The notes under the pieces: generated by a model
The model's database searches: none
The model's input: the letters and a program-made list of their open reading frames with translations, nothing else
What the model was told of the DNA's origin: nothing
Assembly (NCBI GenBank): GCA_902477075.1
Contig: CABSFU010000001.1
Span: 94,555 to 158,554, forward strand
Source: an uncultured Bacillales bacterium
GTDB taxonomy: Bacteria > Bacillota_I > Bacilli_A > RF39 > UBA660
Direction: 5' to 3'
DNA: 64,000 nt
Shown here: positions 9,100-39,827 of the stretch, in pieces
Position numbering within the stretch: the first letter of the stretch is position 1
How the letters are laid out: each line of letters opens with the position of its first letter
Made by a program: the position numbers and the translations under genes

Positions 9100-9318
9100 G
9101 TACGTAAAAATGTTGAAGGAAAGAAAAATATCTTCTTTTTGTAGAGACTTTGTGGTTGGTGTAAACAAAGAAAAGAAATATTGTAAATGGTTCTGGAGTT
9201 GCCTATGTGATATTTAGCTTAGGCCGTAATCTTGCGTTAAAAGTTTGAGATAAAAACAATGTTTTTAAATAAGGTGGTACCGCGATAAATTCGCCCTTAT
9301 AAGGTACTTTTTTTTGTT
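9100..9318 (+). promoter_or_regulatory. T-box riboswitch leader (probably Met-specific) ahead of metG
   Basis: Stem-I AGAGA motif at ~9143; canonical T-box sequence AAGGTGGTACCGCG at 9269-9284; downstream hairpin and U8 run 9310-9317 immediately 5' of the metG RBS. Confidence 0.65.
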
Positions 9319-9334
9319 GTTTAAGGAGGATTTT

Positions 9335-10888
9335 ATGAAAGAAAAATTTTATATTTCAACTGCAATAGCTTATGCTTCTGCAAAACCCCATATTGGAAAT
9401 ACTTACGAAATTGTTTTAGCAGATTCTATTGCTCGTTATAAAAGACTATTAGGATATGATGTTTATTTTCAAACAGGTACTGATGAACATGGGGAAAAAA
9501 TAGAAATTAAAGCTAGAGAAAAAGGAATCCAACCACAAGAATATGTAGATGAAAATTCCTTAGAAGTTCGCAAAATTTGGGATGTTATGAATACAAGTTA
9601 TGATAAATTTATTCGTACTACAAATGCATCTCATAAGGAAATGGTAGCTAAAATTTTTAAAAAGTTATATGATCAGGGAGATATTTATAAAGGAATTTAT
9701 CAAGGCCTTTATTGTACACCTTGTGAGTCTTTCTGGACAGAAACACAGTTAGTAGACGGCAAATGTCCTGATTGTGGCAGAGAAGTACATGTCGCAGAAG
9801 AAGAGGCTTATTTCTTTAAATTGAGCAATTATAGTAAAAGATTAGAAGAATATATTGAAACACACCCAGAATTTATTAAACCTGAAAGTAGAAAAAATGA
9901 AATCGTAAATAACTTTATAAAACCAGGGTTACAAGACCTTTGTGTATCTCGTACATCATTTGACTGGGGTATTCCAGTATCATTTGATGATAAACATGTT
10001 ATTTATGTATGGATTGATGCTTTAAGCAACTATATTACTTTCTTAGGATATGATGTAGATGGTAATCATTCAGAAGAATTTAAAAAATATTGGCCAGCTG
10101 ATATTCATTTAATCGGTAAAGATATTTTACGTTTTCACACAATTTATTGGCCAATTATGTTGATGGCTTTAAATTTACCACTTCCAAAACAAGTTTTCGG
10201 TCATCCATGGGTATTGTTTGGAAATGACAAGATGAGTAAATCGAAAGGAAATATTTTATATGCTGATGATTTAGTAAAAGAATTTGGTGTAGATGCTATT
10301 CGTTATTATTTACTTCATGAAATACCTTATTCTAATGATGGATCAATTACTTATGAATTAATTATTGATCGTATCAATTCTGATTTAGCAAATATTTTAG
10401 GAAATTTAGTAAACCGTACGATTTCTATGTGTCAAAAATATTTTAATGGAATCGTCTATGAACCAACTACTTACACTGAATTAGACTTAGAATTAAGAGA
10501 TATGGTAATGTCTTTACCTAATAAAGTAAAAGCAAAAATGGATGATTTGAGAGTAGCAGAAGCTATTGATGAGATATTTGAGGTATTAAGAAGATGTAAT
10601 AAATATATAGATGAAACAACTCCATGGATTTTAGCAAAAGAACAAAATGAGGAAAGGTTAAAAACAGTATTGTATACATTACTAGAATCAATTAGAAGTT
10701 GCGCTGTAATGTTGCAACCATTTTTACCAGATACAGCAGATGAAATTTTTAAACAATTAAATACAGAAAACAGATATATTGACAGTATTAATTTTAAAGG
10801 AATGGATCCATTAATTAAATTGAATGAACCAACTCCTTTATTCTTAAGAATTGATAAAGAAAAAAAATTACAAGAATTATCTAAATAG
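9335..10888 (+). CDS. metG: methionine--tRNA ligase (short form)
   Basis: HIGN (HIGH-type) motif, CxxC...CxDC zinc knuckle and KMSKS motif; RBS GGAGGA. Confidence 0.9.
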   Translation: MKEKFYISTAIAYASAKPHIGNTYEIVLADSIARYKRLLGYDVYFQTGTDEHGEKIEIKAREKGIQPQEYVDENSLEVRKIWDVMNTSYDKFIRTTNASHKEMVAKIFKKLYDQGDIYKGIYQGLYCTPCESFWTETQLVDGKCPDCGREVHVAEEEAYFFKLSNYSKRLEEYIETHPEFIKPESRKNEIVNNFIKPGLQDLCVSRTSFDWGIPVSFDDKHVIYVWIDALSNYITFLGYDVDGNHSEEFKKYWPADIHLIGKDILRFHTIYWPIMLMALNLPLPKQVFGHPWVLFGNDKMSKSKGNILYADDLVKEFGVDAIRYYLLHEIPYSNDGSITYELIIDRINSDLANILGNLVNRTISMCQKYFNGIVYEPTTYTELDLELRDMVMSLPNKVKAKMDDLRVAEAIDEIFEVLRRCNKYIDETTPWILAKEQNEERLKTVLYTLLESIRSCAVMLQPFLPDTADEIFKQLNTENRYIDSINFKGMDPLIKLNEPTPLFLRIDKEKKLQELSK

Positions 10889-27259: not shown

Positions 27260-27361
27260 CCAGTGAAAAACACTAGTTTTGTTTGACTTTGCACATGTTG
27301 TATGTTAACATAATGCGTAGGAAGTGGCAAAATCGCCATTATATCAGATATATAAATGCTT

Positions 27362-27396
27362 AAGAGGCGATTAATTATTTTAATTGCCTCTTTTTG
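27362..27396 (+). terminator. rho-independent terminator downstream of trxB
   Basis: AGAGGCGATTAATTATTTTAATTGCCTCT followed by TTTTT. Confidence 0.6.
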
Positions 27397-27497
27397 TTAA
27401 AAAATAAAAATTTTTAGTAAGATAAATTCAAATATTAACAAAAAAATCATTAAATGAAAGGAATAACTGATAGTTAATTTAGAAAGGGTAGAATAAT

Positions 27498-27833
27498 ATG
27501 AAGAAAAAAGATATCAATTATTATAGAATATGTGATTTATTTAGAAAAGTTATTACTTCGTTAGTTTGTATTGAATATAAAATATCTAATGAATCAATAA
27601 AGGAAGAAATTAAACCAATTTTGGAGGATTTTGTTAATCAATATGAATTATATTCTGTAAAATCAAATTCTAATTTAATAGGATTTAAATACAGTGAAAA
27701 ACAAATAACTGAATTTGCTAATAATTTATATGATAATATTGATGTATTTAATTTTGCAGAAGATTTGGAATTTGGATTTTCTGAACTGGTTAAATATATT
27801 ATGCTAGAAAGGGAGAAAAAAAATGAGTGCTAG
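27498..27833 (+). CDS. hypothetical protein; first gene of a 4-gene operon
   Basis: RBS AGAAAGGGTAGAATAATATG; tightly packed with the three genes that follow. Confidence 0.35.
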   Translation: MKKKDINYYRICDLFRKVITSLVCIEYKISNESIKEEIKPILEDFVNQYELYSVKSNSNLIGFKYSEKQITEFANNLYDNIDVFNFAEDLEFGFSELVKYIMLEREKKNEC

Positions 27834-28386
27834 AGAAACTGAGGGTGGAACATGGATTAATGTAAATAGTAAAGATGAAAAAGCACATGTTAATATTTAC
27901 GATAAAGATCCAAGAGATGAACATAATACTTCAATACATGTGAATATAAATTATGAAGAAGAAACTTTTAATATTACTGAAAAAGATGATGGCAAAAAAA
28001 CAACCACTGACTGCAGTTGTTTCTTAACAACTGCTTGTATGAAACACTTTCATAAACAATTTGATGATAATTGTTATGAACTTAAAGTCCTTAGATGGTT
28101 TAGAGATAAATTTGTGTCTAAAGAAGACATAGAACATTATTATGAAATAGCTCCAATAATAGTAGAAAATATAAATAGATTTGATAATTGTAATGAATTA
28201 TATAATGGAATTTATGAAAATGTAATTTTATTATGTGTAAAAGCAATAGAAAATAATGAATATGATTTAGCGTACAATATTTATAAAAATAGTATTTTAA
28301 ATTTGGAAGAAGAATATGCAAGACCAGCATTAGAACAAAAACTAGTTAAAGTTTTAAGAAATAGAATAAAGAATATTAATAATTAA
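27823..28386 (+). CDS. hypothetical Cys/His-rich protein (CSCFLTTAC...LRWFRD)
   Basis: Overlaps the previous gene by 11 nt. Confidence 0.35.
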   Translation: MSARETEGGTWINVNSKDEKAHVNIYDKDPRDEHNTSIHVNINYEEETFNITEKDDGKKTTTDCSCFLTTACMKHFHKQFDDNCYELKVLRWFRDKFVSKEDIEHYYEIAPIIVENINRFDNCNELYNGIYENVILLCVKAIENNEYDLAYNIYKNSILNLEEEYARPALEQKLVKVLRNRIKNINN

Positions 28387-28453
28387 AATCTTTATGTTGT
28401 TTAAAGATTTTAATTATTATATAATAAGTGTGGATTTTAGTTATGGAGGATAT

Positions 28454-29515
28454 ATGAAAAAAGATATTGATCAAATTTTTGAAGAATATAAAAAAAGAAA
28501 AAAAGAAATTATTGAACAAAATTTACCTATAACAGGTATAGAAGATGCAAAGAAAGTTTATCCTAAAACTAAAAAATTATTAAAAATAATTACATTTTTA
28601 TCAGGTGAAAATATAGAATGGTTAAAAGGCAAGGATGTTAGTGTTCCATCTGATAGAACAGTCATTTTTGCTAATACACATAGATTTAAACCTGACTTTG
28701 AAAAAATAACTATTGTGACTGATAGACCATCTTTTGTTATTGCAAGTGATTTTAGAAATTCATATGGAACTATTAGTGGATGGTATTTTAATACAAGACC
28801 AACAATTTTTGTTGACCCATATTCAAAAGAGGATAAACATTATTCATATGAATTAATGAAAAGATATCTAAATTTGGGATTAGATTGTACAATATTTCCT
28901 GAAGCTGTTTGGAATTTATCCGAAAACGAAATTATTTTAGATACATTTTTTGGTAGTGTAAATGCAGCTTTAGAAACTAATTCTCTTATAATTTGTACTG
29001 CAATTGAAAGATATGGTAAAAAATATATAATTAACAGAAGTGAACCAATTGATTTAAGTTTAATTGTGAAAAAAAATACAGATATTTCATTTGGAAAACT
29101 TGATAAAAATGATGAAAAGCAGAAAAAAATTATTAATAAAATATTAAATGATTGCAACATTGCTATGAGAGATTGTATGGCAACATTACTTTTTGAAATT
29201 TGGGAAGATATAGCAAAAAAAGATGGTGTCACTAAAAGACAATTAATTCCTAATAATTATTGGGACAGCTTTGTAAACAATTTAACGGAAGAATGGCCTG
29301 GATACAAAATGAGTGATAATGATGAGCAGAAATTTCAAAATAAATTTCGTATTGAGCAACAACAAGTAGAAAGAGATATGGAAAAATTAAAACACAACAT
29401 TAATGATAAAAATATGTTTATGATTGCTTCTAATGACAGATTTTTGAATTATATGAGATTGAAAGACGAAATTTCTGAAATAGAAGAAATAGTATCAAAA
29501 AGAAAGAGAAAGTGA
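28454..29515 (+). CDS. PlsC/LPLAT-family acyltransferase-like protein with a C-terminal extension
   Basis: HX4D motif (NTHRFKPD) and FPEAVWN (FPEGTR-like motif III); RBS GGAGGATATATG at 28454. Confidence 0.45.
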   Translation: MKKDIDQIFEEYKKRKKEIIEQNLPITGIEDAKKVYPKTKKLLKIITFLSGENIEWLKGKDVSVPSDRTVIFANTHRFKPDFEKITIVTDRPSFVIASDFRNSYGTISGWYFNTRPTIFVDPYSKEDKHYSYELMKRYLNLGLDCTIFPEAVWNLSENEIILDTFFGSVNAALETNSLIICTAIERYGKKYIINRSEPIDLSLIVKKNTDISFGKLDKNDEKQKKIINKILNDCNIAMRDCMATLLFEIWEDIAKKDGVTKRQLIPNNYWDSFVNNLTEEWPGYKMSDNDEQKFQNKFRIEQQQVERDMEKLKHNINDKNMFMIASNDRFLNYMRLKDEISEIEEIVSKRKRK

Positions 29516-29519
29516 TTAT

Positions 29520-31319
29520 ATGAGTAATTTACAACTTCCGTTATGTTCTGTTTTATTAAGCTTGATATTATTAATTTTATATTATTCAAAAGATAATATA
29601 AACAATACGGAAACTAAGATTTTTGGTAATATTTTAATGACACAATTTATTGGCTCATTAGCTGAATTTATTATTTATCTTTTGGCATATGTTTTTTACA
29701 ATGAACTAATTATAATATTTCTAAATAATATAGTATGTATATCATATTGTATATGGTCTTTTCTATTTTGTATATATATCTATTATATATCTCTTGATAA
29801 TACAAAAGGGTATATCAATAGTATTAAAAAAGCTATGATTGCTAATGTTATTGTATTTATATTAATTATAATTTCACCTATTGTATTGATTAATGAAGAT
29901 GGTATGATGTATTCATCTGGTTTAAAACCAACAATAACATATATATATTGTTTAATTTGGTTTGTTCTAGCTATTATAGTTTGGTTCTGTAATATTAAAA
30001 ATTTTAAAAATATAAAATATGCTCCTTTATATTTCTTTTATGGTGTAGCAGTATTAATATTTATAATAAGAGTGGTAGATCCAAGTATATTAATAATATC
30101 GTTAGCACTAACTCTTATTAATTTAGTAATGTATCATACAATAGAAAACCCAGATATTAAAATGTTAAGAGAATTCCATAAACAAAGAGAATTAGCGAAT
30201 GAATCTAATCAAGAAAAAACATCATTCTTATTTAATATGTCTAATCAAATTAAAGAACCAATTTTAGCCATTTCAAATATCAGTGGAGAAGCATTACTGG
30301 AAGATAATATGGAAGAAGTAAAAGAAGATTTAAGAAGAATAAAATCTTCATCAAATGAATTATTACAATTAGTAAATGATGTATTAGATATTTCAGATAT
30401 AGAAAAAAGGAAAATAGGTATTAGAGAAGTTAAATATAATGTTTATCATTTATTTGAAGTATTAAATAAAAACTTTAGTAAAAATGTAAGTAAAAAAATA
30501 GAATATCGTTTTCATTTTGATAAAAGTATTCCAGAATATTTATATGGAGATTCTATCCGTATTAAACAAGTAATGAATATTTTATTAGAAAATGCTTTGG
30601 AATATACCAACGAAGGATTTATAGAAGTAAATGTTAATTATGTTATAAAACATGATGTATGTAGATTAATTATTACAGTAGAAGATTCAGGACTAGGAAT
30701 GAGTGTTGATGAAATAAAACATTTATTTGATAAAGAAAAAATATATAGTGATGAATTATTAAAAGAAGTAGATGATACTAAAAATAATTTAGGTGTATTA
30801 AAATCAATTATTAATTTAATGAATGGTAATATACTAGTAAATAGTGAAATAGGAAAAGGAAGTAAATTTACTATTATAATTGATCAAAAAATAAAAGAAG
30901 AAAAAACAAAAATAATTGAAACAGTAGAACAATATGAAGAGATGTATGAAAATAAAGAAAAAATATTGTTAGTAATCAATCATAAAGAACTTAGCAAAAA
31001 AATAAATAAGATGTTTAAAAAAGATACTTATGAAATAGAAGAAGTAACTGGTGGACAAGCTTGTTTAGAAAAAATAAGAAAAAATGAAAAATTTGATTTA
31101 ATTATAATGGAAGAAGATTTAGAAAAATTAAGTAGTGAAGATACCTTAATAAAATTAAAAGATACATCTGGTTATAAAATACCAGTAATCTTAATTAGCA
31201 ATAACAAAGGATTTGGAGCTAAAGAAATGTATCAAGAAAAAGGATTTAAAGATGTATTATTTTTACCACTTAAAAAAGAAGAAGTTTTAAAACAAGTAGA
31301 AGAATATATTAAAGATTAA
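29520..31319 (+). CDS. membrane-bound hybrid histidine-kinase-like protein (6 TM + HisKA-like + HATPase_c + REC-like) with both phospho-acceptor residues substituted
   Basis: The H-box reads FLFNMSNQIKEP, so His is replaced by Asn. N, G1 (DSGLGM) and G2 (GKGSKF) boxes are present. The receiver reads LLVINH...FDLIIMEED, so the acidic pair DD is replaced by IN and the phospho-Asp by Glu. Confidence 0.55.
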   Translation: MSNLQLPLCSVLLSLILLILYYSKDNINNTETKIFGNILMTQFIGSLAEFIIYLLAYVFYNELIIIFLNNIVCISYCIWSFLFCIYIYYISLDNTKGYINSIKKAMIANVIVFILIIISPIVLINEDGMMYSSGLKPTITYIYCLIWFVLAIIVWFCNIKNFKNIKYAPLYFFYGVAVLIFIIRVVDPSILIISLALTLINLVMYHTIENPDIKMLREFHKQRELANESNQEKTSFLFNMSNQIKEPILAISNISGEALLEDNMEEVKEDLRRIKSSSNELLQLVNDVLDISDIEKRKIGIREVKYNVYHLFEVLNKNFSKNVSKKIEYRFHFDKSIPEYLYGDSIRIKQVMNILLENALEYTNEGFIEVNVNYVIKHDVCRLIITVEDSGLGMSVDEIKHLFDKEKIYSDELLKEVDDTKNNLGVLKSIINLMNGNILVNSEIGKGSKFTIIIDQKIKEEKTKIIETVEQYEEMYENKEKILLVINHKELSKKINKMFKKDTYEIEEVTGGQACLEKIRKNEKFDLIIMEEDLEKLSSEDTLIKLKDTSGYKIPVILISNNKGFGAKEMYQEKGFKDVLFLPLKKEEVLKQVEEYIKD

Positions 31320-31392
31320 AATATATTCTTTTTTGTTGTAATTTACAACTTATTATATAAATGTTATAATACTTTACGAAAGAGATGATGTT

Positions 31393-36069: not shown

Positions 36070-36990
36070 ATGAAAAGAAAAGGATTTACGCTTATTGAAT
36101 TACTAGCTGTAATTGTAATATTATCAGTAATTACATTAATTACAGTACCAATGATAACCAGTGTAATAGAAGAAAGTAAAAAGAAAGCACTTGTATTTAG
36201 TGTACAAGGATTAATAGAATCCGCTAATTTATACGCTATCGAAAATGAAGGAGTGCATGAATTTTTATTTGATAAAGAACATCAAGGAAGTACCATAAAA
36301 GGAGAAAGTTTAGATTATAAAGGAAAAATAGAAGGAGAAGGGAAACTCTATATAGATAAAGAAGGAAATACGAGTATTTGTATTTCGAATGATACCTATT
36401 ATGTATATAAAAACTATAATAGTGAAATTATCATAGGAGAAAGAAGCAAAGATAATTGTAATATTGAATATGATGCTTTAACGAATAAATATGTAGCCTT
36501 TTTAGAAAGTACAGGAAGCGGAAGTAATGTATACTCCAAAGATGAAGTCAATAACTTAGTAGATAGTTTAGATACTAAAATAACAAATAATACTAGTGAA
36601 ATAACAAATCTAAAAAGTAATATCGAAGAGTTACAAAATAACTTAAATAATCTATCTAGCGTTGTTAATAATAATAAAGAAAAAATAGATAGTTTAAATA
36701 GCAAGTTAGTTAATGTAATCGTTAAAAATATATATAAAGAAACAAAATCATATTCAATAGTTAAAGGTGTAAATGTGGTGGTATTTGATATTCCACAAAT
36801 TGATGGGTATAAACCCATTATGTATGTAGCTAATGCTCATGCATGGTATCCTAACATAAGGCCATACGGTAATGAAAGCTCTCTAATATATGATAATGCA
36901 AGTAACATTGGTGTTTATTATTACTTTGATGCAGATTTTACACTTGATGGTGGTAATTTTAGTTGTACAGTATTATATATTACTGTTTAA
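36070..36990 (+). CDS. prepilin-type N-terminal domain protein (pilin-like), paralog 2
   Basis: MKRKGFTLIELLAVIVILSVITLITVPM; N-terminal ~200 aa shared with the other two paralogs; unique C-terminus. Confidence 0.6.
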   Translation: MKRKGFTLIELLAVIVILSVITLITVPMITSVIEESKKKALVFSVQGLIESANLYAIENEGVHEFLFDKEHQGSTIKGESLDYKGKIEGEGKLYIDKEGNTSICISNDTYYVYKNYNSEIIIGERSKDNCNIEYDALTNKYVAFLESTGSGSNVYSKDEVNNLVDSLDTKITNNTSEITNLKSNIEELQNNLNNLSSVVNNNKEKIDSLNSKLVNVIVKNIYKETKSYSIVKGVNVVVFDIPQIDGYKPIMYVANAHAWYPNIRPYGNESSLIYDNASNIGVYYYFDADFTLDGGNFSCTVLYITV

Positions 36991-37201: not shown

Positions 37202-38452
37202 TTACTTTATTTTTCTATAGATAGGTAGTAGTTTTTTATAAGAAAAATATAAAAATTTATGAATTACTAAATCAAATTCTCCAATAAATTCAGTATATTC
37301 TCCTCCAAATCTTTTTTTGAATGAGTGGATTCCAAAAATAGGATTGGATTTATCTGGATTTGCTATTCCACTTGTACCAAAGAAATCTACTATTTTGTAA
37401 CCTTCTTCATGTGCATCCTTAATAATTTGATAATATAGTAAATAATTAGAATTTAGCTCTCTTAAAATATTGCTATTGCCTCCATGAATGGTCCATACTT
37501 TATCTCCATATTTTACAGTAATAATAGATGAAAGTATAATATGTTCTTTTTCAATAGTATGAATGAAATCAATTTCTTTTTTTGTTTTATCAATTTTGTT
37601 AATCAAATCTTTTTTAATATTTTCTTGTTTTTCTTTATTTTTATATTTAGGATCATCTAAATTTTTAAGTTCTAATTCTAAATATTCCAAATTTTTTTCA
37701 TAAGTAATAATTAAATCATGAATGTCAACTTCTACAATATATAGATCACTCATATTTTGTTTATTTAAAATGGCATAAAAATTTTTATAATATTCCATTG
37801 GTGTTAAATGTAGGTGTTCTCTAACGGCTGTATCTTTCATTGTTTCATAAAATTTAGGAATATCTTCTATAGAACCTTTATACATATTTAAATGATATTG
37901 ATTTCCTTTATTTAAAATTTTCCTAGTAGTTGGATGAATATTTTTATAGATATCATCTAAGCTTTTATTAATATCTAATCTGAAAGTAAATCTAGGTTGC
38001 TCATTTACAAATTCTGTATTAAATCCTTTATGCTTATAACCTAGCATTTCTAAATAATCTACTACTTTTTCATGAGAATTTCCTAGTACATTTCCATCTT
38101 GATCCAAATCATGTAACTTTACATCAGGATCAATTTTTACAAACAAAGCTTTATTTTTTTTAGCAAACTTTTTAATATAATTAGTAAATGTATTTAGTAA
38201 TTTGTAATTACTATAATCCATTATATATCCTCTAGGGCAATAGAAATAGCAGTAATTTCCAATTAATTTTTTTTTGAGTAATAATGCAGTAGCAACTAAT
38301 TTATCATTTTCCTTTAATCCAACGTAATAAGGAGTAAAGTTTTTATATTTCATAATTTCACCAAAATAATGACTTTGCATGAAATGGGATTTATTGCTAT
38401 TTAAAACGAAATCTTCATACTCATTTATATCTATGTCTGTTATAAATTTCAT
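37202..38452 (-). CDS. FemAB-family peptidoglycan interpeptide-bridge aminoacyltransferase
   Basis: ~416 aa with two acyltransferase lobes and a central coiled coil; FemX/MurM-like. Confidence 0.7.
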   Translation of the reverse strand: MKFITDIDINEYEDFVLNSNKSHFMQSHYFGEIMKYKNFTPYYVGLKENDKLVATALLLKKKLIGNYCYFYCPRGYIMDYSNYKLLNTFTNYIKKFAKKNKALFVKIDPDVKLHDLDQDGNVLGNSHEKVVDYLEMLGYKHKGFNTEFVNEQPRFTFRLDINKSLDDIYKNIHPTTRKILNKGNQYHLNMYKGSIEDIPKFYETMKDTAVREHLHLTPMEYYKNFYAILNKQNMSDLYIVEVDIHDLIITYEKNLEYLELELKNLDDPKYKNKEKQENIKKDLINKIDKTKKEIDFIHTIEKEHIILSSIITVKYGDKVWTIHGGNSNILRELNSNYLLYYQIIKDAHEEGYKIVDFFGTSGIANPDKSNPIFGIHSFKKRFGGEYTEFIGEFDLVIHKFLYFSYKKLLPIYRKIK

Positions 38453-38561
38453 TATGAACCTCTTTTCTATCTTTTTTAAGTATATCCTTTATTTAAAGAA
38501 TAGTCAAATGATTCTCTTTTAAAAAAATGTAATTTATAGTATACTAATTATGGGTGATAAT

Positions 38562-39827
38562 ATGATAGAAAAATTAACGCCGGAAGAATTTAATGAATTT
38601 TCTAAAAACAGTAATCAAGGTACTTTTTTTCAATCTTCTTATTGGGGAGAATTAAAATCTTTTACAGGTTGGACTCACCATATGGTTGGGTTAAAAAAAG
38701 ATAATAAAGTAGTAGCAGCAACTCTTTTATTAGGAAAAAAAATTCCGTTACTTGGAAAATATATTTATTATGCACCAAGAGGTTTTTTGATAGATTATCA
38801 TGATAATGAACTTTTAGAATTGTTTGTTTCTAGTATGAAACAATATATCAAAAAAAATAAAGGAATTTTTATTAAAATTAATCCTTATGTAGAGTACCGA
38901 AAAAGGGATATTAATGGCGATATTATGAATGATGAAACAAATCAAAGTATTATCGATAAATTGATTGATTTAGGTTTTGTTCATAATGGTTTTACTATTA
39001 ATTATGGAATTGATTTAGAACCAAGATGGATTTCTGTTTTAGATTTAAAAGGAAAAACAGAAGAAGACATTTTATCTAATATGAGACAATCGACTAGATG
39101 GAGAGTGAATAATTCCTATAAACATGGTTTAGAATTAAATGAAATAGATGAATCTAGATTACCTGAATTTAAAAAGTTGATGGAACATACAGGGGAAAGA
39201 AGAGGGTTTATTGATCGACCTTTATCTTATTATCAAAAAATGTATGAAGCATTTAAAAAAGATGATAATATTAAAATTATGCTTGTCGATCTTAATATCG
39301 AAGATTATTTAACAAACTTAAAAAATCAGAAAAATGAATTAATGCTTAAAATAGCAGAAGTTAAAACAAAAAATATGACAACGCGTAATCAAAATTATTT
39401 AAATGAGTTACAAACTCAATTGAAATCATTAGATGAAAGAATTGAAATGTTGTACATTTTACTAGAAACAAAGGGTAAAGTAATTACAGTAGCGGGTGGT
39501 TTATTTATGACATTTGGAAAACAAGTAATTTCTTTATTTGGTGCTTCTTATCAGGAGTATATGAAATTTAATGGTCAATATTTTTTAAATTTTAAAATGA
39601 TAAAATATGCTTTAAATAATGGTTTTGAAAAATATAATTTTTACGGAATAACTGGCGAATTTAATGAAGATTCTCCAATGTTTGGATTATTTGATTTTAA
39701 AAGAGGATTTAATGCTGAAGTAGTTGAATTAATAGGAGAATTTACTTTAGTTACTAGAAAACTTAGTTATAAAGTTTATAGATTAATGTTGAAAATATAT
39801 CATAAATTAAAGAAAAGAGGAAAATAA
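38562..39827 (+). CDS. FemAB-family peptidoglycan interpeptide-bridge aminoacyltransferase (second copy, divergent)
   Basis: Paralogous to 37202-38452; RBS GGGTGA. Confidence 0.7.
   Translation: MIEKLTPEEFNEFSKNSNQGTFFQSSYWGELKSFTGWTHHMVGLKKDNKVVAATLLLGKKIPLLGKYIYYAPRGFLIDYHDNELLELFVSSMKQYIKKNKGIFIKINPYVEYRKRDINGDIMNDETNQSIIDKLIDLGFVHNGFTINYGIDLEPRWISVLDLKGKTEEDILSNMRQSTRWRVNNSYKHGLELNEIDESRLPEFKKLMEHTGERRGFIDRPLSYYQKMYEAFKKDDNIKIMLVDLNIEDYLTNLKNQKNELMLKIAEVKTKNMTTRNQNYLNELQTQLKSLDERIEMLYILLETKGKVITVAGGLFMTFGKQVISLFGASYQEYMKFNGQYFLNFKMIKYALNNGFEKYNFYGITGEFNEDSPMFGLFDFKRGFNAEVVELIGEFTLVTRKLSYKVYRLMLKIYHKLKKRGK

What the first reader, a model, noticed from the sequence alone, without database searches (positions are those of the whole stretch)
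29520..31319. Hybrid histidine kinase with the phospho-acceptor His replaced by Asn and the receiver phospho-Asp replaced by Glu
The HisKA H-box reads FLFNMSNQIKEP where the canonical form is FLANMSHELRTP. The ATP-binding N, G1 and G2 boxes are intact. The fused receiver-like domain lacks the DD pair (LLVINH) and has Glu at the phospho-Asp position (DLIIMEED). Both substitutions are needed to read the open frame as a single protein, so this is not a single sequencing error. It suggests a phosphorelay-independent sensor ATPase or pseudokinase.
Basis: seen in the sequence. Interest (0 to 1): 0.6.

Follow-up and report, generated by a model that had tools for sequence, protein, structure and literature searches.

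The report
Pseudo-histidine kinase with swappable sensor cassette
A membrane signalling protein of an uncultured gut bacterium has lost the residues needed to take up and pass on phosphate, yet it is strongly conserved, and its sensor half plus a neighbouring lipid-enzyme gene is exchanged between lineages as one unit, much like pheromone-receptor cassettes in staphylococci.

Summary
The ORF (29520-31319, 599 aa) is real. It has a 7-TM domain, then HisKA, HATPase_c and REC domains. Two further points: the G2 box is not intact (GxGxG has become DDTKNN), and the receiver Lys is lost (Leu582). None of this is strain-specific. All 120 nearest relatives lack the His. The degenerate proteins form one clade (bootstrap 60/60) inside a large family of canonical 7-TM hybrid kinases from uncultured gut Bacilli. 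That clade lost His and G2 once, then eroded the receiver pocket stepwise, and it lacks the Hpt-REC partner gene found next to canonical members (0/25 vs 31/61). The cytoplasmic block is under purifying selection (dN/dS 0.12-0.16). New here: the upstream enzyme gene (PlsC-like acyltransferase or acyl-CoA-ligase-like) and the 7-TM domain are co-inherited as a cassette that recombines with the cytoplasmic module at a conserved TIENPD hinge, including one same-species allelic replacement. Verdict: a genuine, conserved pseudo-hybrid kinase, not an ATPase. Its output is most likely phosphorylation-independent. Its ligand and downstream partner are unknown.

The parts
29520..31319 (+). Whole gene: 7-TM sensor + degenerate DHp + degenerate CA + pseudo-receiver (599 aa)
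29520..30140 (+). N-terminal 7-TM sensor domain (aa 1-207). Inferred N-out/C-in topology. Extracytoplasmic beta-hairpin at aa 122-133. No Pfam model covers it.
   Evidence: AF2 pLDDT 85.5, pTM 0.84. Only weak GPCR-like 7-TM matches. No Pfam hit. Profile finds 4278 representatives, always N-terminal.
30138..30155 (+). TIENPD hinge motif (aa 207-212) between TM7 and DHp helix 1. Nearly invariant across canonical and degenerate members. It marks the recombination breakpoint.
30225..30260 (+). Degenerate H-box FLFNMSNQIKEP. Asn242 (30243-30245) replaces the phospho-acceptor His. The +1 acid and +4 Thr/Asn of the kinase/phosphatase motif are also replaced (Gln, Glu).
30429..30890 (+). CA (HATPase_c) domain. 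N358 and G1 (DSGLG, 30684-30698) are kept. The N-box Lys is Glu361.
30771..30794 (+). Former G2 box, now DDTKNNLG (aa 418-425). No GxGxG motif.
30957..31313 (+). Pseudo-receiver (aa 480-598): DD replaced by I486 N487, phospho-Asp by E531 (31110-31112), Thr by S560, Lys by L582
30124..31341 (+). Conserved, recombining cytoplasmic block. It is 94-96% DNA-identical in loci whose membrane domain and neighbours are unrelated. dS is 0.14, against 0.24-0.75 in flanking genes.
27281..30123 (+). Variable cassette: orf111, orf187, the orf373 acyltransferase and the HK membrane domain. No detectable similarity to the syntenic locus L084.
28394..29515 (+). orf373: PlsC/LPLAT-like acyltransferase with HX4D (HRFKPD) and FPEAVWN motifs. 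Its stop codon lies 4 nt before the HK start. It is co-inherited with the 7-TM domain.
27823..28386 (+). orf187: cassette ORF with a sub-threshold CFI-box-CTERM-like segment. No homologue next to other family members.
27498..27833 (+). orf111: cassette ORF with no family hit
27362..27392 (+). Strong terminator-like hairpin after trxB. It marks the left edge of the cassette and its likely transcription unit.

Best explanation
The gene encodes a catalytically dead descendant of a 7-TM hybrid histidine kinase: a pseudo-hybrid kinase.

Shown. It cannot autophosphorylate at the canonical site (Asn242). It lacks the G2 glycines and the N-box Lys that hold the ATP phosphates. Its fused receiver cannot accept phosphate (no DD pair, Glu for Asp, Leu for Lys). 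It belongs to a single old clade that lost His and G2 once, then lost the receiver pocket stepwise, and lost the Hpt-REC partner gene. It is nevertheless under purifying selection. The 7-TM domain and the enzyme gene just upstream (here a PlsC-like acyltransferase, elsewhere an acyl-CoA-ligase-like adenylating enzyme, or both) are inherited together. They recombine with the cytoplasmic module at the TIENPD hinge.

Inferred. The 7-TM domain recognises a lipid-like molecule that is the substrate or product of its cognate enzyme. It transmits this through the TIENPD hinge into the dimeric DHp/CA/pseudo-receiver module. That module works as a conformational switch or scaffold that binds a conserved, still unidentified partner instead of transferring phosphate.
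For: Catalytic sites.

Family-wide fixation: 0/120 nearest relatives have His (N95/K24/S1). N358 and G1 are kept in 120/120. Of 99 full-length representatives, 73 lack His and all 73 lack G2. Their receivers are intact in 21, have lost DD in 17, DD+K in 14 and everything in 16.

One clade: 46 degenerate vs 61 canonical split perfectly, with bootstrap 60/60 when the motif columns are masked.

Partner loss: an Hpt gene sits at +1/+2 in 31/61 canonical loci and 0/25 degenerate loci, p=1e-6. Long canonical forms have a fused Hpt. There is no other HK, REC or Hpt in the window.

Selection: dN/dS is 0.12-0.16. The protein is identical or near-identical across many samples.

Cassette: against syntenic L084, the stretch 27.3-30.1 kb is unrelated while 30124-31341 is 93-100% identical. 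The window's TM domain is closest to canonical L005/L009/L012 (48/39/33%), which carry orf373-like genes (about 51% identity to L009's) but have only 32-36% identical cytoplasmic parts. Across 81 loci, Spearman enzyme~TM is 0.41, enzyme~cytoplasm 0.02 and TM~cytoplasm 0.05. L089 and L091 are 99% identical downstream but carry replaced cassettes whose enzymes are 28% identical. An enzyme gene lies upstream in about 75/86 loci set in unrelated genomic contexts.

Enzymes look active: HX4D and FPEGxWN motifs are conserved, and the AMP-binding enzymes match FadD-type ligases at E=1e-37.

Precedents: the DivL pseudokinase (PMC4211667) and phosphorelay-independent signalling by the RpfC REC domain (PMC4504480).
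Against: No ligand, no partner and no output have been identified. The mechanistic half is inference from gene linkage and co-variation.

Co-inheritance of the enzyme gene and the TM domain could partly reflect physical adjacency, because recombination is anchored in the conserved block.

The pairwise statistics ignore phylogenetic non-independence.

In the window the cassette holds an acyltransferase only, with no AMP-binding enzyme, plus two ORFs of unknown role.

The tree is neighbour-joining only.

Nearly all data come from metagenome assemblies, where a shared 1.2-kb block could cause chimeric joins. The window's own arrangement, however, is reproduced in three independent assemblies.

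Retention of N358 and G1 leaves some nucleotide binding possible.

I could not establish whether the window's genome also holds a canonical paralogue.
Confidence: 0.55

Rival explanations
1. Decoy or modulator of a canonical paralogue, in the manner of RetS or DivL. The pseudo-kinase heterodimerises through its DHp with a canonical 7-TM hybrid kinase of the same family, or it binds a phosphorylated receiver or Hpt-REC protein. Either way it adds a second sensory input to a real phosphorelay encoded elsewhere in the genome.
For: Canonical and degenerate members share the DHp family and the hinge. Genomes carry several family members (shared contig lengths). Early-branching degenerate members keep an intact receiver pocket that another kinase could phosphorylate. 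RetS and DivL are among the closest solved relatives or precedents (PMC4211667).
Against: No canonical copy or Hpt-REC is in the 64-kb window or next to any of the 25 degenerate loci. The window's own receiver cannot be phosphorylated. The window's H-box has also lost the +1 acid and +4 Thr/Asn used in phosphatase and receiver chemistry. Co-occurrence within one genome could not be tested.
Confidence: 0.2
2. Phosphorelay-independent sensor ATPase. The CA domain still binds and hydrolyses ATP, and nucleotide turnover drives signalling.
For: The Mg-binding N358 and G1 (DxGxG) are invariant in 120/120 close relatives and kept in most of the clade. This suggests continued selection on the adenine pocket.
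Against: The G2 glycines are absent in every clade member. The N-box Lys is Glu/Thr/Asp. The lid carries acidic DD residues and is modelled at pLDDT below 50. Even DivL, which keeps all the boxes, binds ATP more than 19-fold more weakly than typical kinases (PMC4211667).
Confidence: 0.1
3. Direct enzyme regulator in the manner of RpfC-RpfF. The pseudo-receiver or CA domain binds and controls the upstream-encoded acyltransferase or adenylating enzyme.
For: The gene pair is conserved, with only 4 nt between the genes. The RpfC REC domain represses RpfF by protein contact without phosphorelay (PMC4504480).
Against: Enzyme similarity does not track the cytoplasmic module at all (Spearman 0.02, partial 0.003). 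In L089/L091, 99%-identical cytoplasmic modules pair with enzymes of different classes and 28% identity. That argues against a specific interface.
Confidence: 0.08
4. A decaying relic, or a sequencing or strain-specific artefact, with no function.
For: Many catalytic residues are lost, and Pfam scores are about half those of canonical relatives.
Against: Full-length ORFs persist throughout a deep clade. dN/dS is 0.12-0.16. New clade-specific motifs are invariant (DDTKNNL, HLFDKEKIY, EFHK). The protein is identical across many samples.
Confidence: 0.03
5. Phosphorylation moved to another residue, for example the sub-clade-invariant His220 in the EFHK motif.
For: His220 is nearly invariant in the window's sub-clade.
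Against: His220 lies 22 residues (about six helical turns) upstream of the canonical site on the same long helix. It is N/Y/E in canonical members and in the other degenerate branches. The ATP site is degraded anyway.
Confidence: 0.03

Closest known systems
DivL pseudo-histidine kinase (Caulobacter; PMC4211667)
   Same: HisKA-type DHp/CA module. The phospho-His is replaced in all orthologues. There is no kinase activity, and the transmitter has been repurposed for protein-protein signalling.
   Different: DivL has Tyr, keeps the N, G1, F and G2 boxes, uses PAS sensors and has no fused receiver. Here the replacement is Asn (Gln or Lys in relatives), G2 is destroyed, the sensor is a 7-TM domain and a pseudo-receiver is fused. 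No phospho-RR partner is known.
RetS (Pseudomonas hybrid sensor that acts on GacS; PDB 6DK7/6DK8)
   Same: A membrane hybrid kinase whose signalling does not rely on its own autokinase activity. It is among the closest solved sequences (E=3e-18).
   Different: What I say about RetS mechanism is from my own knowledge, not tested here. RetS keeps a His and works on a defined partner kinase. No partner is identified here.
agr (agrB-agrD-agrC) hypervariable specificity groups, and the comQXP pherotypes (PMC10482373; com from my own knowledge)
   Same: A polymorphic segment covers the upstream gene(s) and the multi-TM sensor domain of the kinase, while the cytoplasmic module is conserved. One same-species allelic replacement is seen (L089/L091).
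   Different: Here the upstream genes are lipid-type enzymes (PlsC-like acyltransferase, ANL adenylating enzyme), not a peptide precursor and its processing protein. The kinase type is HisKA hybrid rather than HPK10. In this clade the kinase is dead. No signal molecule is known.
Rpf/DSF system (RpfC hybrid kinase, RpfB fatty acyl-CoA ligase, RpfF; PMC4504480)
   Same: A multi-TM hybrid kinase with REC (+Hpt) that senses a fatty-acid signal and is linked to a fatty acyl-CoA ligase gene. Its REC domain also signals without phosphorelay.
   Different: No RpfF-type crotonase and no HD-GYP regulator are present. The host phylum is different. The co-variation data argue against a specific REC-enzyme interface.
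Pseudo-receiver domains (FrzS, KaiA N-terminal domain, ShkA Rec1, plant PRRs with Glu at the Asp site)
   Same: A receiver fold without a phospho-accepting pocket. FrzS and KaiA_N appear among the hits.
   Different: Those sit in other architectures. Here the erosion is captured stepwise within one clade. The point about Glu in plant PRRs is from my own knowledge.

Membership tests
HisKA-type sensor histidine kinase (functional enzyme) | DHp domain matching HisKA | tested here: met
   PF00512 scores 32.4 bits against a cut-off of 26.9, at aa 233-295. The model has two long helices, 211-260 and 264-299.
HisKA-type sensor histidine kinase (functional enzyme) | Phospho-acceptor His in the H-box | tested here: not met
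   Asn242 aligns to His260 of HK853 and to the His of 61 canonical relatives.
HisKA-type sensor histidine kinase (functional enzyme) | HATPase_c fold with N-box Asn and G1 DxGxG | tested here: met
   PF02518 scores 57 bits. N358, D389, G391 and G393 are present and invariant in 120 relatives.
HisKA-type sensor histidine kinase (functional enzyme) | G2 box GxGxG (ATP lid / phosphate binding) | tested here: not met
   DDTKNNLG replaces EGTGLGLA. G2 is absent in all 73 non-His representatives.
HisKA-type sensor histidine kinase (functional enzyme) | ATP-dependent autophosphorylation | not testable with these tools
   Needs a biochemical assay.
Phospho-accepting receiver (REC) of a hybrid kinase | Receiver fold | tested here: met
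   PF00072 scores 38.5 bits against a cut-off of 30.2. The model shows the alternating strand/helix pattern of a receiver at aa 480-598.
Phospho-accepting receiver (REC) of a hybrid kinase | Acidic pair, phospho-Asp and conserved Lys | tested here: not met
   DD is I486 N487, Asp is E531 and Lys is L582. Only Thr to S560 is conservative.
Phosphorelay (hybrid HK - Hpt - RR) | Hpt domain fused or encoded nearby | tested here: not met
   No Hpt in the protein or in the window. 0/25 degenerate loci have one, against 31/61 canonical loci plus fused forms.
DivL-like pseudo-histidine kinase | His substitution conserved across orthologues with retention of the fold | tested here: met
DivL-like pseudo-histidine kinase | Homology or architecture of DivL (PAS sensors, Tyr at the site, all ATP boxes kept) and binding of a phospho-RR | tested here: not met
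   The sensor is a 7-TM domain, the site is Asn and G2 is lost. Partner binding is not testable. So it works like a pseudo-HK but is not a DivL family member.
agr/com-type polymorphic signal-receptor cassette | Variable segment spanning the upstream gene(s) and the kinase's sensor domain, with a conserved cytoplasmic module | tested here: met
agr/com-type polymorphic signal-receptor cassette | Allelic variants within one species | tested here: inconclusive
   Met for family members L089/L091, whose flanks are 99% identical. Not seen in the window's own species: L001-L003 carry the same cassette. The nearest alternative cassette is in a relative with about 85% identical flanks.
agr/com-type polymorphic signal-receptor cassette | Upstream genes make a secreted signal that the sensor domain binds | not testable with these tools
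   The enzymes are PlsC-like or ANL-type. No peptide precursor or AgrB/ComQ homologue lies in the cassette.

The most novel reading that the evidence does not exclude
The family is a previously unrecognised lipid-based signal-receptor system of uncultured gut Bacilli. Each [adenylating enzyme and/or acyltransferase + 7-TM sensor] cassette defines a specificity type, like an agr or com pherotype, for a self-made or scavenged acyl compound. The window's clade has rewired the output from a His-Asp-His-Asp phosphorelay to a phosphorylation-independent conformational signal through a conserved pseudo-transmitter.
Probability: 0.25. Interest if true: 0.8.

Novelty: new variant of a known kind. Interest (0 to 1): 0.6.

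Why it matters
Pseudo-histidine kinases are known from only a few studied cases, with DivL the paradigm. Here a whole, species-rich clade captures the path from a working hybrid kinase to a dead one. His and G2 go first, the Hpt-REC partner disappears, and the receiver pocket then erodes stepwise, all under purifying selection. That gives a natural series for asking what a transmitter does once phosphotransfer is gone.

Public annotation calls these proteins 'hybrid sensor histidine kinase/response regulator'. Counts of two-component systems in these gut genomes are therefore inflated.

The co-inherited enzyme-plus-sensor cassette points to a ligand class (acyl or lipid compounds). It also points to strain-level specificity types in a group of abundant but uncultured human and animal gut bacteria.

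Tried and rejected
1. An alternative phospho-acceptor. His220 (EFHK) is conserved only in a sub-clade and lies far from the catalytic position.

2. Sequencing error or strain-specific mutation. Rejected by three independent assemblies and by 120 relatives.

3. Homogenisation of the cytoplasmic block among paralogues within one genome. Paralogues that appear to share a contig (P0017/P0090, P0036/P0092) are divergent throughout, with TM 28-29% and cytoplasm 50-59% identical. I judged contig sharing only from equal contig lengths and did not verify it.

5. orf111 and orf187. No Pfam or PHROG hits, only a sub-threshold CFI-box-CTERM match. orf373 has no PDB sequence relative.

6. Promoter scan. 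The number of promoter-like sites is no higher than in shuffled sequence (39 vs 44), so only the terminator after trxB is used.

7. Whether the window's genome also carries a canonical paralogue.

8. Literature searches found no description of this family.
Full report
THE OBSERVATION

Window 29520..31319 (+) is an intact 599-codon ORF. Pfam places HisKA at aa 233-295, HATPase_c at 343-456 and Response_reg at 482-593. All three are above their gathering thresholds. NCBIfam matches only generic hybrid-kinase models (LuxQ, TorS, ArcB, BarA), far below their equivalog cut-offs.

The alignment to Thermotoga HK853 puts Asn242 (AAT) opposite the phospho-acceptor His260, within FLFNMSNQIKEP vs FIANISHELRTP. 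The alignment of the C-terminal domain to the cognate receiver RR468 puts Ile486-Asn487 opposite D9-D10, Glu531 (GAA) opposite D53, Ser560 opposite T83 and Leu582 opposite K105.

Two corrections are needed. First, the G2 box is not intact. HK853's GTGLGL aligns to DTKNNL, and aa 400-435 hold a single Gly. Second, the receiver Lys and the N-box Lys (Glu361) are lost as well.

The gene is identical or 99.4-100% identical at the DNA level over about 13 kb in three independent metagenome assemblies. The protein cluster has 18 members seen on many contigs, and none of them varies at 242 or 531. NCBI names it 'hybrid sensor histidine kinase/response regulator' of a Mycoplasmatota/Tenericutes MAG. 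The window has about 25% G+C.

NOT A STRAIN-SPECIFIC LESION

The 120 best database relatives (45-72% identity, full length) never have His at position 242 (N 95, K 24, S 1). All have D-D-T/N-K-N-N-L in place of G2. All keep N358 and D389xG391xG393. Position 531 is E in 64 and D in 55.

A scan of one genome per species found at least 593 stretches that encode relatives. The 80 returned are almost all uncultured gut MAGs labelled Bacilli, Tenericutes or Mollicutes. Named relatives sit in Bacilli or Bacillota incertae sedis.

In those more distant proteins the same N-terminal domain and a nearly invariant TIENPD hinge are joined, in 61 of 86 cases, to a fully canonical hybrid kinase (MSHEIRTPL, EGTGLGLAIT, VDDN, LMDDMM, SKP). 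In the other 25 cases they are joined to proteins degenerate at these sites.

On a tree of the cytoplasmic part, the 46 degenerate and 61 canonical sequences split perfectly. The split has 60/60 bootstrap support when every catalytic-motif column is masked.

Within the degenerate clade every member lacks His and G2, and nearly all keep N358 (43/46) and G1 (46/46). The receiver pocket ranges from intact (DD/D/T/K) in early branches to fully eroded in the window's sub-clade.

An unbiased profile search with the membrane domain alone found 4278 representatives at 50% identity. The domain is always N-terminal. Of 99 full-length proteins among the best 150, 73 lack His (Gln is commonest) and all 73 lack G2. 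Their receivers are intact in 21, have lost DD in 17, DD+K in 14 and everything in 16.

Pfam scores show the erosion. HATPase_c, REC and HisKA score about 98, 80-92 and 51-66 bits in canonical relatives, against 57, 38 and 32 bits here.

LOSS OF THE PHOSPHORELAY PARTNER

In canonical loci the gene just downstream encodes Hpt+REC, either fused (about 260 aa) or split (about 119 + 127 aa). Pfam confirms Hpt and Response_reg. Longer canonical kinases carry a fused Hpt.

An Hpt gene lies at +1/+2 in 31/61 canonical loci and 0/25 degenerate loci (Fisher p = 1e-6). All degenerate proteins are about 600 aa, so they have no fused Hpt.

In the window the downstream gene is ychF. Profile searches of all six frames find no other kinase, receiver or Hpt in the 64 kb. 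Related genomes do have ordinary two-component systems, for example an agr-like set in L088.

STILL UNDER SELECTION

For the cytoplasmic block (aa 205-599), dN/dS against three relatives is 0.12-0.16. The sub-clade has its own invariant motifs (EFHK, HLFDKEKIY, IDDTKNNL). This rules out a decaying relic.

THE MOSAIC

P0002-P0006 are 88-100% identical to the window protein from residue 205 onward but only 20-32% identical in residues 1-204.

P0004 lies in a syntenic locus of a pig-gut relative (uvrB-lgt-trxB-...-HK-ychF-TMEM164-Bax1-I-rpsF-ssb), where the flanking proteins are 70-95% identical. There, orf111, orf187, orf373 and HK residues 1-204 have no detectable counterpart. They are replaced by an AMP-binding enzyme (760 aa) and a HAD-acyltransferase (455 aa). 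HK residues 205-599 are 96.5% identical, and their DNA is 93-100% identical, which is higher than ychF next door at 77-91%.

Synonymous divergence of the block is 0.14, against 0.75 (ychF), 0.45 (ssb) and 0.24 (rpsF). So the block is younger than its surroundings, which means it was recently recombined.

In L085 the same block (30126-31341, 94%) sits between unrelated sequences on both sides.

Among the 120 close relatives, 702 pairs combine under 40% membrane-domain identity with over 88% cytoplasmic identity. Only one pair shows the reverse.

The REC segment can also move separately. P0007 has a REC 100% identical to the window's, while its DHp/CA is 75-77% identical.

THE CASSETTE IS ENZYME PLUS SENSOR

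The gene immediately upstream, on the same strand, is one of three things in about 75 of 86 loci, and these loci are embedded in unrelated genomic contexts. It is an ANL-superfamily AMP-binding enzyme of about 610 aa (best solved relative a long-chain fatty-acid-CoA ligase, E = 1e-37), or a PlsC-like acyltransferase of 300-400 aa homologous to the window's orf373, or both.

orf373 and its homologues keep the HX4D and FPEGxWN motifs of the PlsC/LPLAT family. Only 4 nt separate its stop from the HK start, and a strong terminator follows trxB upstream of the cassette.

The window's membrane domain is most similar to those of L005, L009 and L012 (48, 39 and 33%). All three are canonical kinases preceded by orf373-like genes (about 51% identity to the window's for L009). 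Their cytoplasmic parts are only 32-36% identical to the window's.

Across 81 loci, similarity of the upstream enzyme correlates with similarity of the membrane domain (Spearman 0.41, and 0.41 after controlling for the cytoplasmic part). It does not correlate with the cytoplasmic part (0.02, partial 0.003). Membrane and cytoplasmic similarities are themselves uncorrelated (0.05). The enzyme's nearest neighbour is also the membrane domain's nearest neighbour in 41/73 loci, against 15/73 for the cytoplasmic part (Wilcoxon p = 4e-8, though the pairs are not independent).

In L089 and L091, 6 kb downstream is 98.96% identical, which is same-species level. Yet the segment from the enzyme's start codon to the end of TM7 is replaced: 2.3 kb with one AMP-binding enzyme versus 4.2 kb with an AMP-binding enzyme plus a HAD-acyltransferase. 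The two AMP-binding enzymes are only 28% identical. L088 and L090 show the same pattern at 94% flank identity.

STRUCTURE

AlphaFold2 with a 68-sequence alignment gives mean pLDDT 77. The model has seven TM helices, a beta-hairpin at 122-133, a break at the ENP of the hinge, two long DHp helices (211-260, 264-299), a CA domain whose lid (406-421) is below pLDDT 50, and a receiver fold.

The membrane domain alone models at pLDDT 85.5 and pTM 0.84. Lys-rich loops at 24-29, 92-104 and 158-166 fit an N-out/C-in topology, which I infer from the positive-inside rule.

Foldseek against the PDB returns only GPCR-type 7-TM bundles (TM-score 0.54-0.70, E at or above 1e-3, 8-15% identity). That shows a generic 7-helix bundle and is not evidence of homology.

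HOW IT MOST LIKELY WORKS

Shown. There is no acceptor His, no G2, no N-box Lys, no receiver pocket and no Hpt. So there is no autophosphorylation at the canonical site and no phosphorelay.

Inferred. The enzyme co-varies with the membrane domain and not with the cytoplasmic module. So the enzyme and the sensor probably share a specificity, meaning the sensor reads the enzyme's substrate or product. That molecule is probably an acyl or lipid compound in or at the membrane. The cytoplasmic module is kept nearly invariant across very different cassettes, so it probably addresses a common, conserved partner by conformation-dependent binding.

The same co-variation argues against a specific REC-enzyme interface of the RpfC-RpfF kind (PMC4504480).

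The main rival is a RetS/DivL-like role as decoy or co-sensor for a canonical paralogue (PMC4211667). It remains open because I could not survey whole genomes.

COMPARISON AND NOVELTY

The protein works like a pseudo-histidine kinase, but it is not a DivL relative. The sensor differs, the substituted residue differs, G2 is destroyed and a pseudo-receiver is fused.

The locus organisation resembles the agr hypervariable region, which spans agrB, agrD and agrC (PMC10482373). Here, though, lipid-type enzymes stand in place of a peptide and its processing protein.

Literature searches found no description of this family.

I rate it a new variant of a known kind. The pseudokinase call is secure. 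The ligand and output model is a hypothesis.

CAVEATS

Nearly all the data are metagenome assemblies, and a shared 1.2-kb block could cause chimeric joins. The window's own arrangement is nevertheless reproduced in three assemblies. The tree is neighbour-joining only. The correlation tests ignore shared ancestry. The assignment of these MAGs to the RF39-type lineage is my recollection and was not tested.

Noticed in passing
window 27823-28386 (+): orf187 inside the variable cassette has a Cys-rich segment (..DCSCFLTTACMKHF..LRWFRDKF..) that matches NCBIfam CFI_box_CTERM below threshold (30.9 bits vs a cut-off of 40). It has no homologue next to other family members. orf111 (27498-27833) has no hits at all.
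   Followed up: partly
window 9104-9301 (+): T-box leader (RF00230, 118 bits) immediately upstream of the 524-aa ORF 9314-10888. That ORF is presumably an aminoacyl-tRNA synthetase or an amino-acid-related gene.
   Followed up: no
window 37202-38452 (-) and 38550-39827 (+): Two divergently oriented FemAB-family genes (annotation from the identical locus L002). They imply peptidoglycan cross-bridge synthesis in a MAG that NCBI labels Mycoplasmatota/Tenericutes, so the organism is probably walled.
   Followed up: no
window 36070-36990 and 40615-41583 (+); L001 16417-19779: ORFs with weak N_methyl (type IV pilin-like) hits. Between rpmE and femAB, strain L001 carries a 1120-aa gene where the window/L002 has the 306-aa one, and L003 has neither. 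This is a second strain-variable spot.
   Followed up: no
L089 11917-16600 and L091 5812-10924: Downstream of two family members lies a RiPP-like cluster: small ORFs (29, 34 and 67 aa), an acetyltransferase and two or three radical-SAM/SPASM enzymes. The cluster is 99% identical between the two loci although their sensor cassettes differ.
   Followed up: no
L088 3061-5872: An agr-like set (AgrB, HATPase_c_5 kinase, two LytTR regulators) lies about 4 kb upstream of a degenerate family member. So these genomes do run conventional peptide quorum sensing.
   Followed up: no
P0007 / P0008 / P0123 / P0132 (relatives of window 30957-31313): The receiver segment is itself mosaic. P0007 has a REC 100% identical to the window's but a DHp/CA only 75-77% identical. 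P0008 equals P0007 except for its REC (71%). Two same-species variants (P0123, P0132) differ only in a tract at aa 577-599.
   Followed up: partly
L084 3351-3734: The syntenic pig-gut relative has a Phage_holin_4_2 gene inserted between uvrB and lgt. The window lacks it.
   Followed up: no
window aa C381 (30660-30662) and C515 (31062-31064): Two cysteines, in CRLIITVEDSG of the CA domain and GGQxCLE of the REC domain, are invariant in the close clade. They are also common in canonical members (73/86 and 64/86). This is a family-wide feature of unknown meaning.
   Followed up: partly
window 62001-64000: G+C rises to 36% at the right end of the window, against about 25% elsewhere. Many short, same-strand ORFs lie from about 55 kb onward. 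This may be a ribosomal-protein operon.
   Followed up: no
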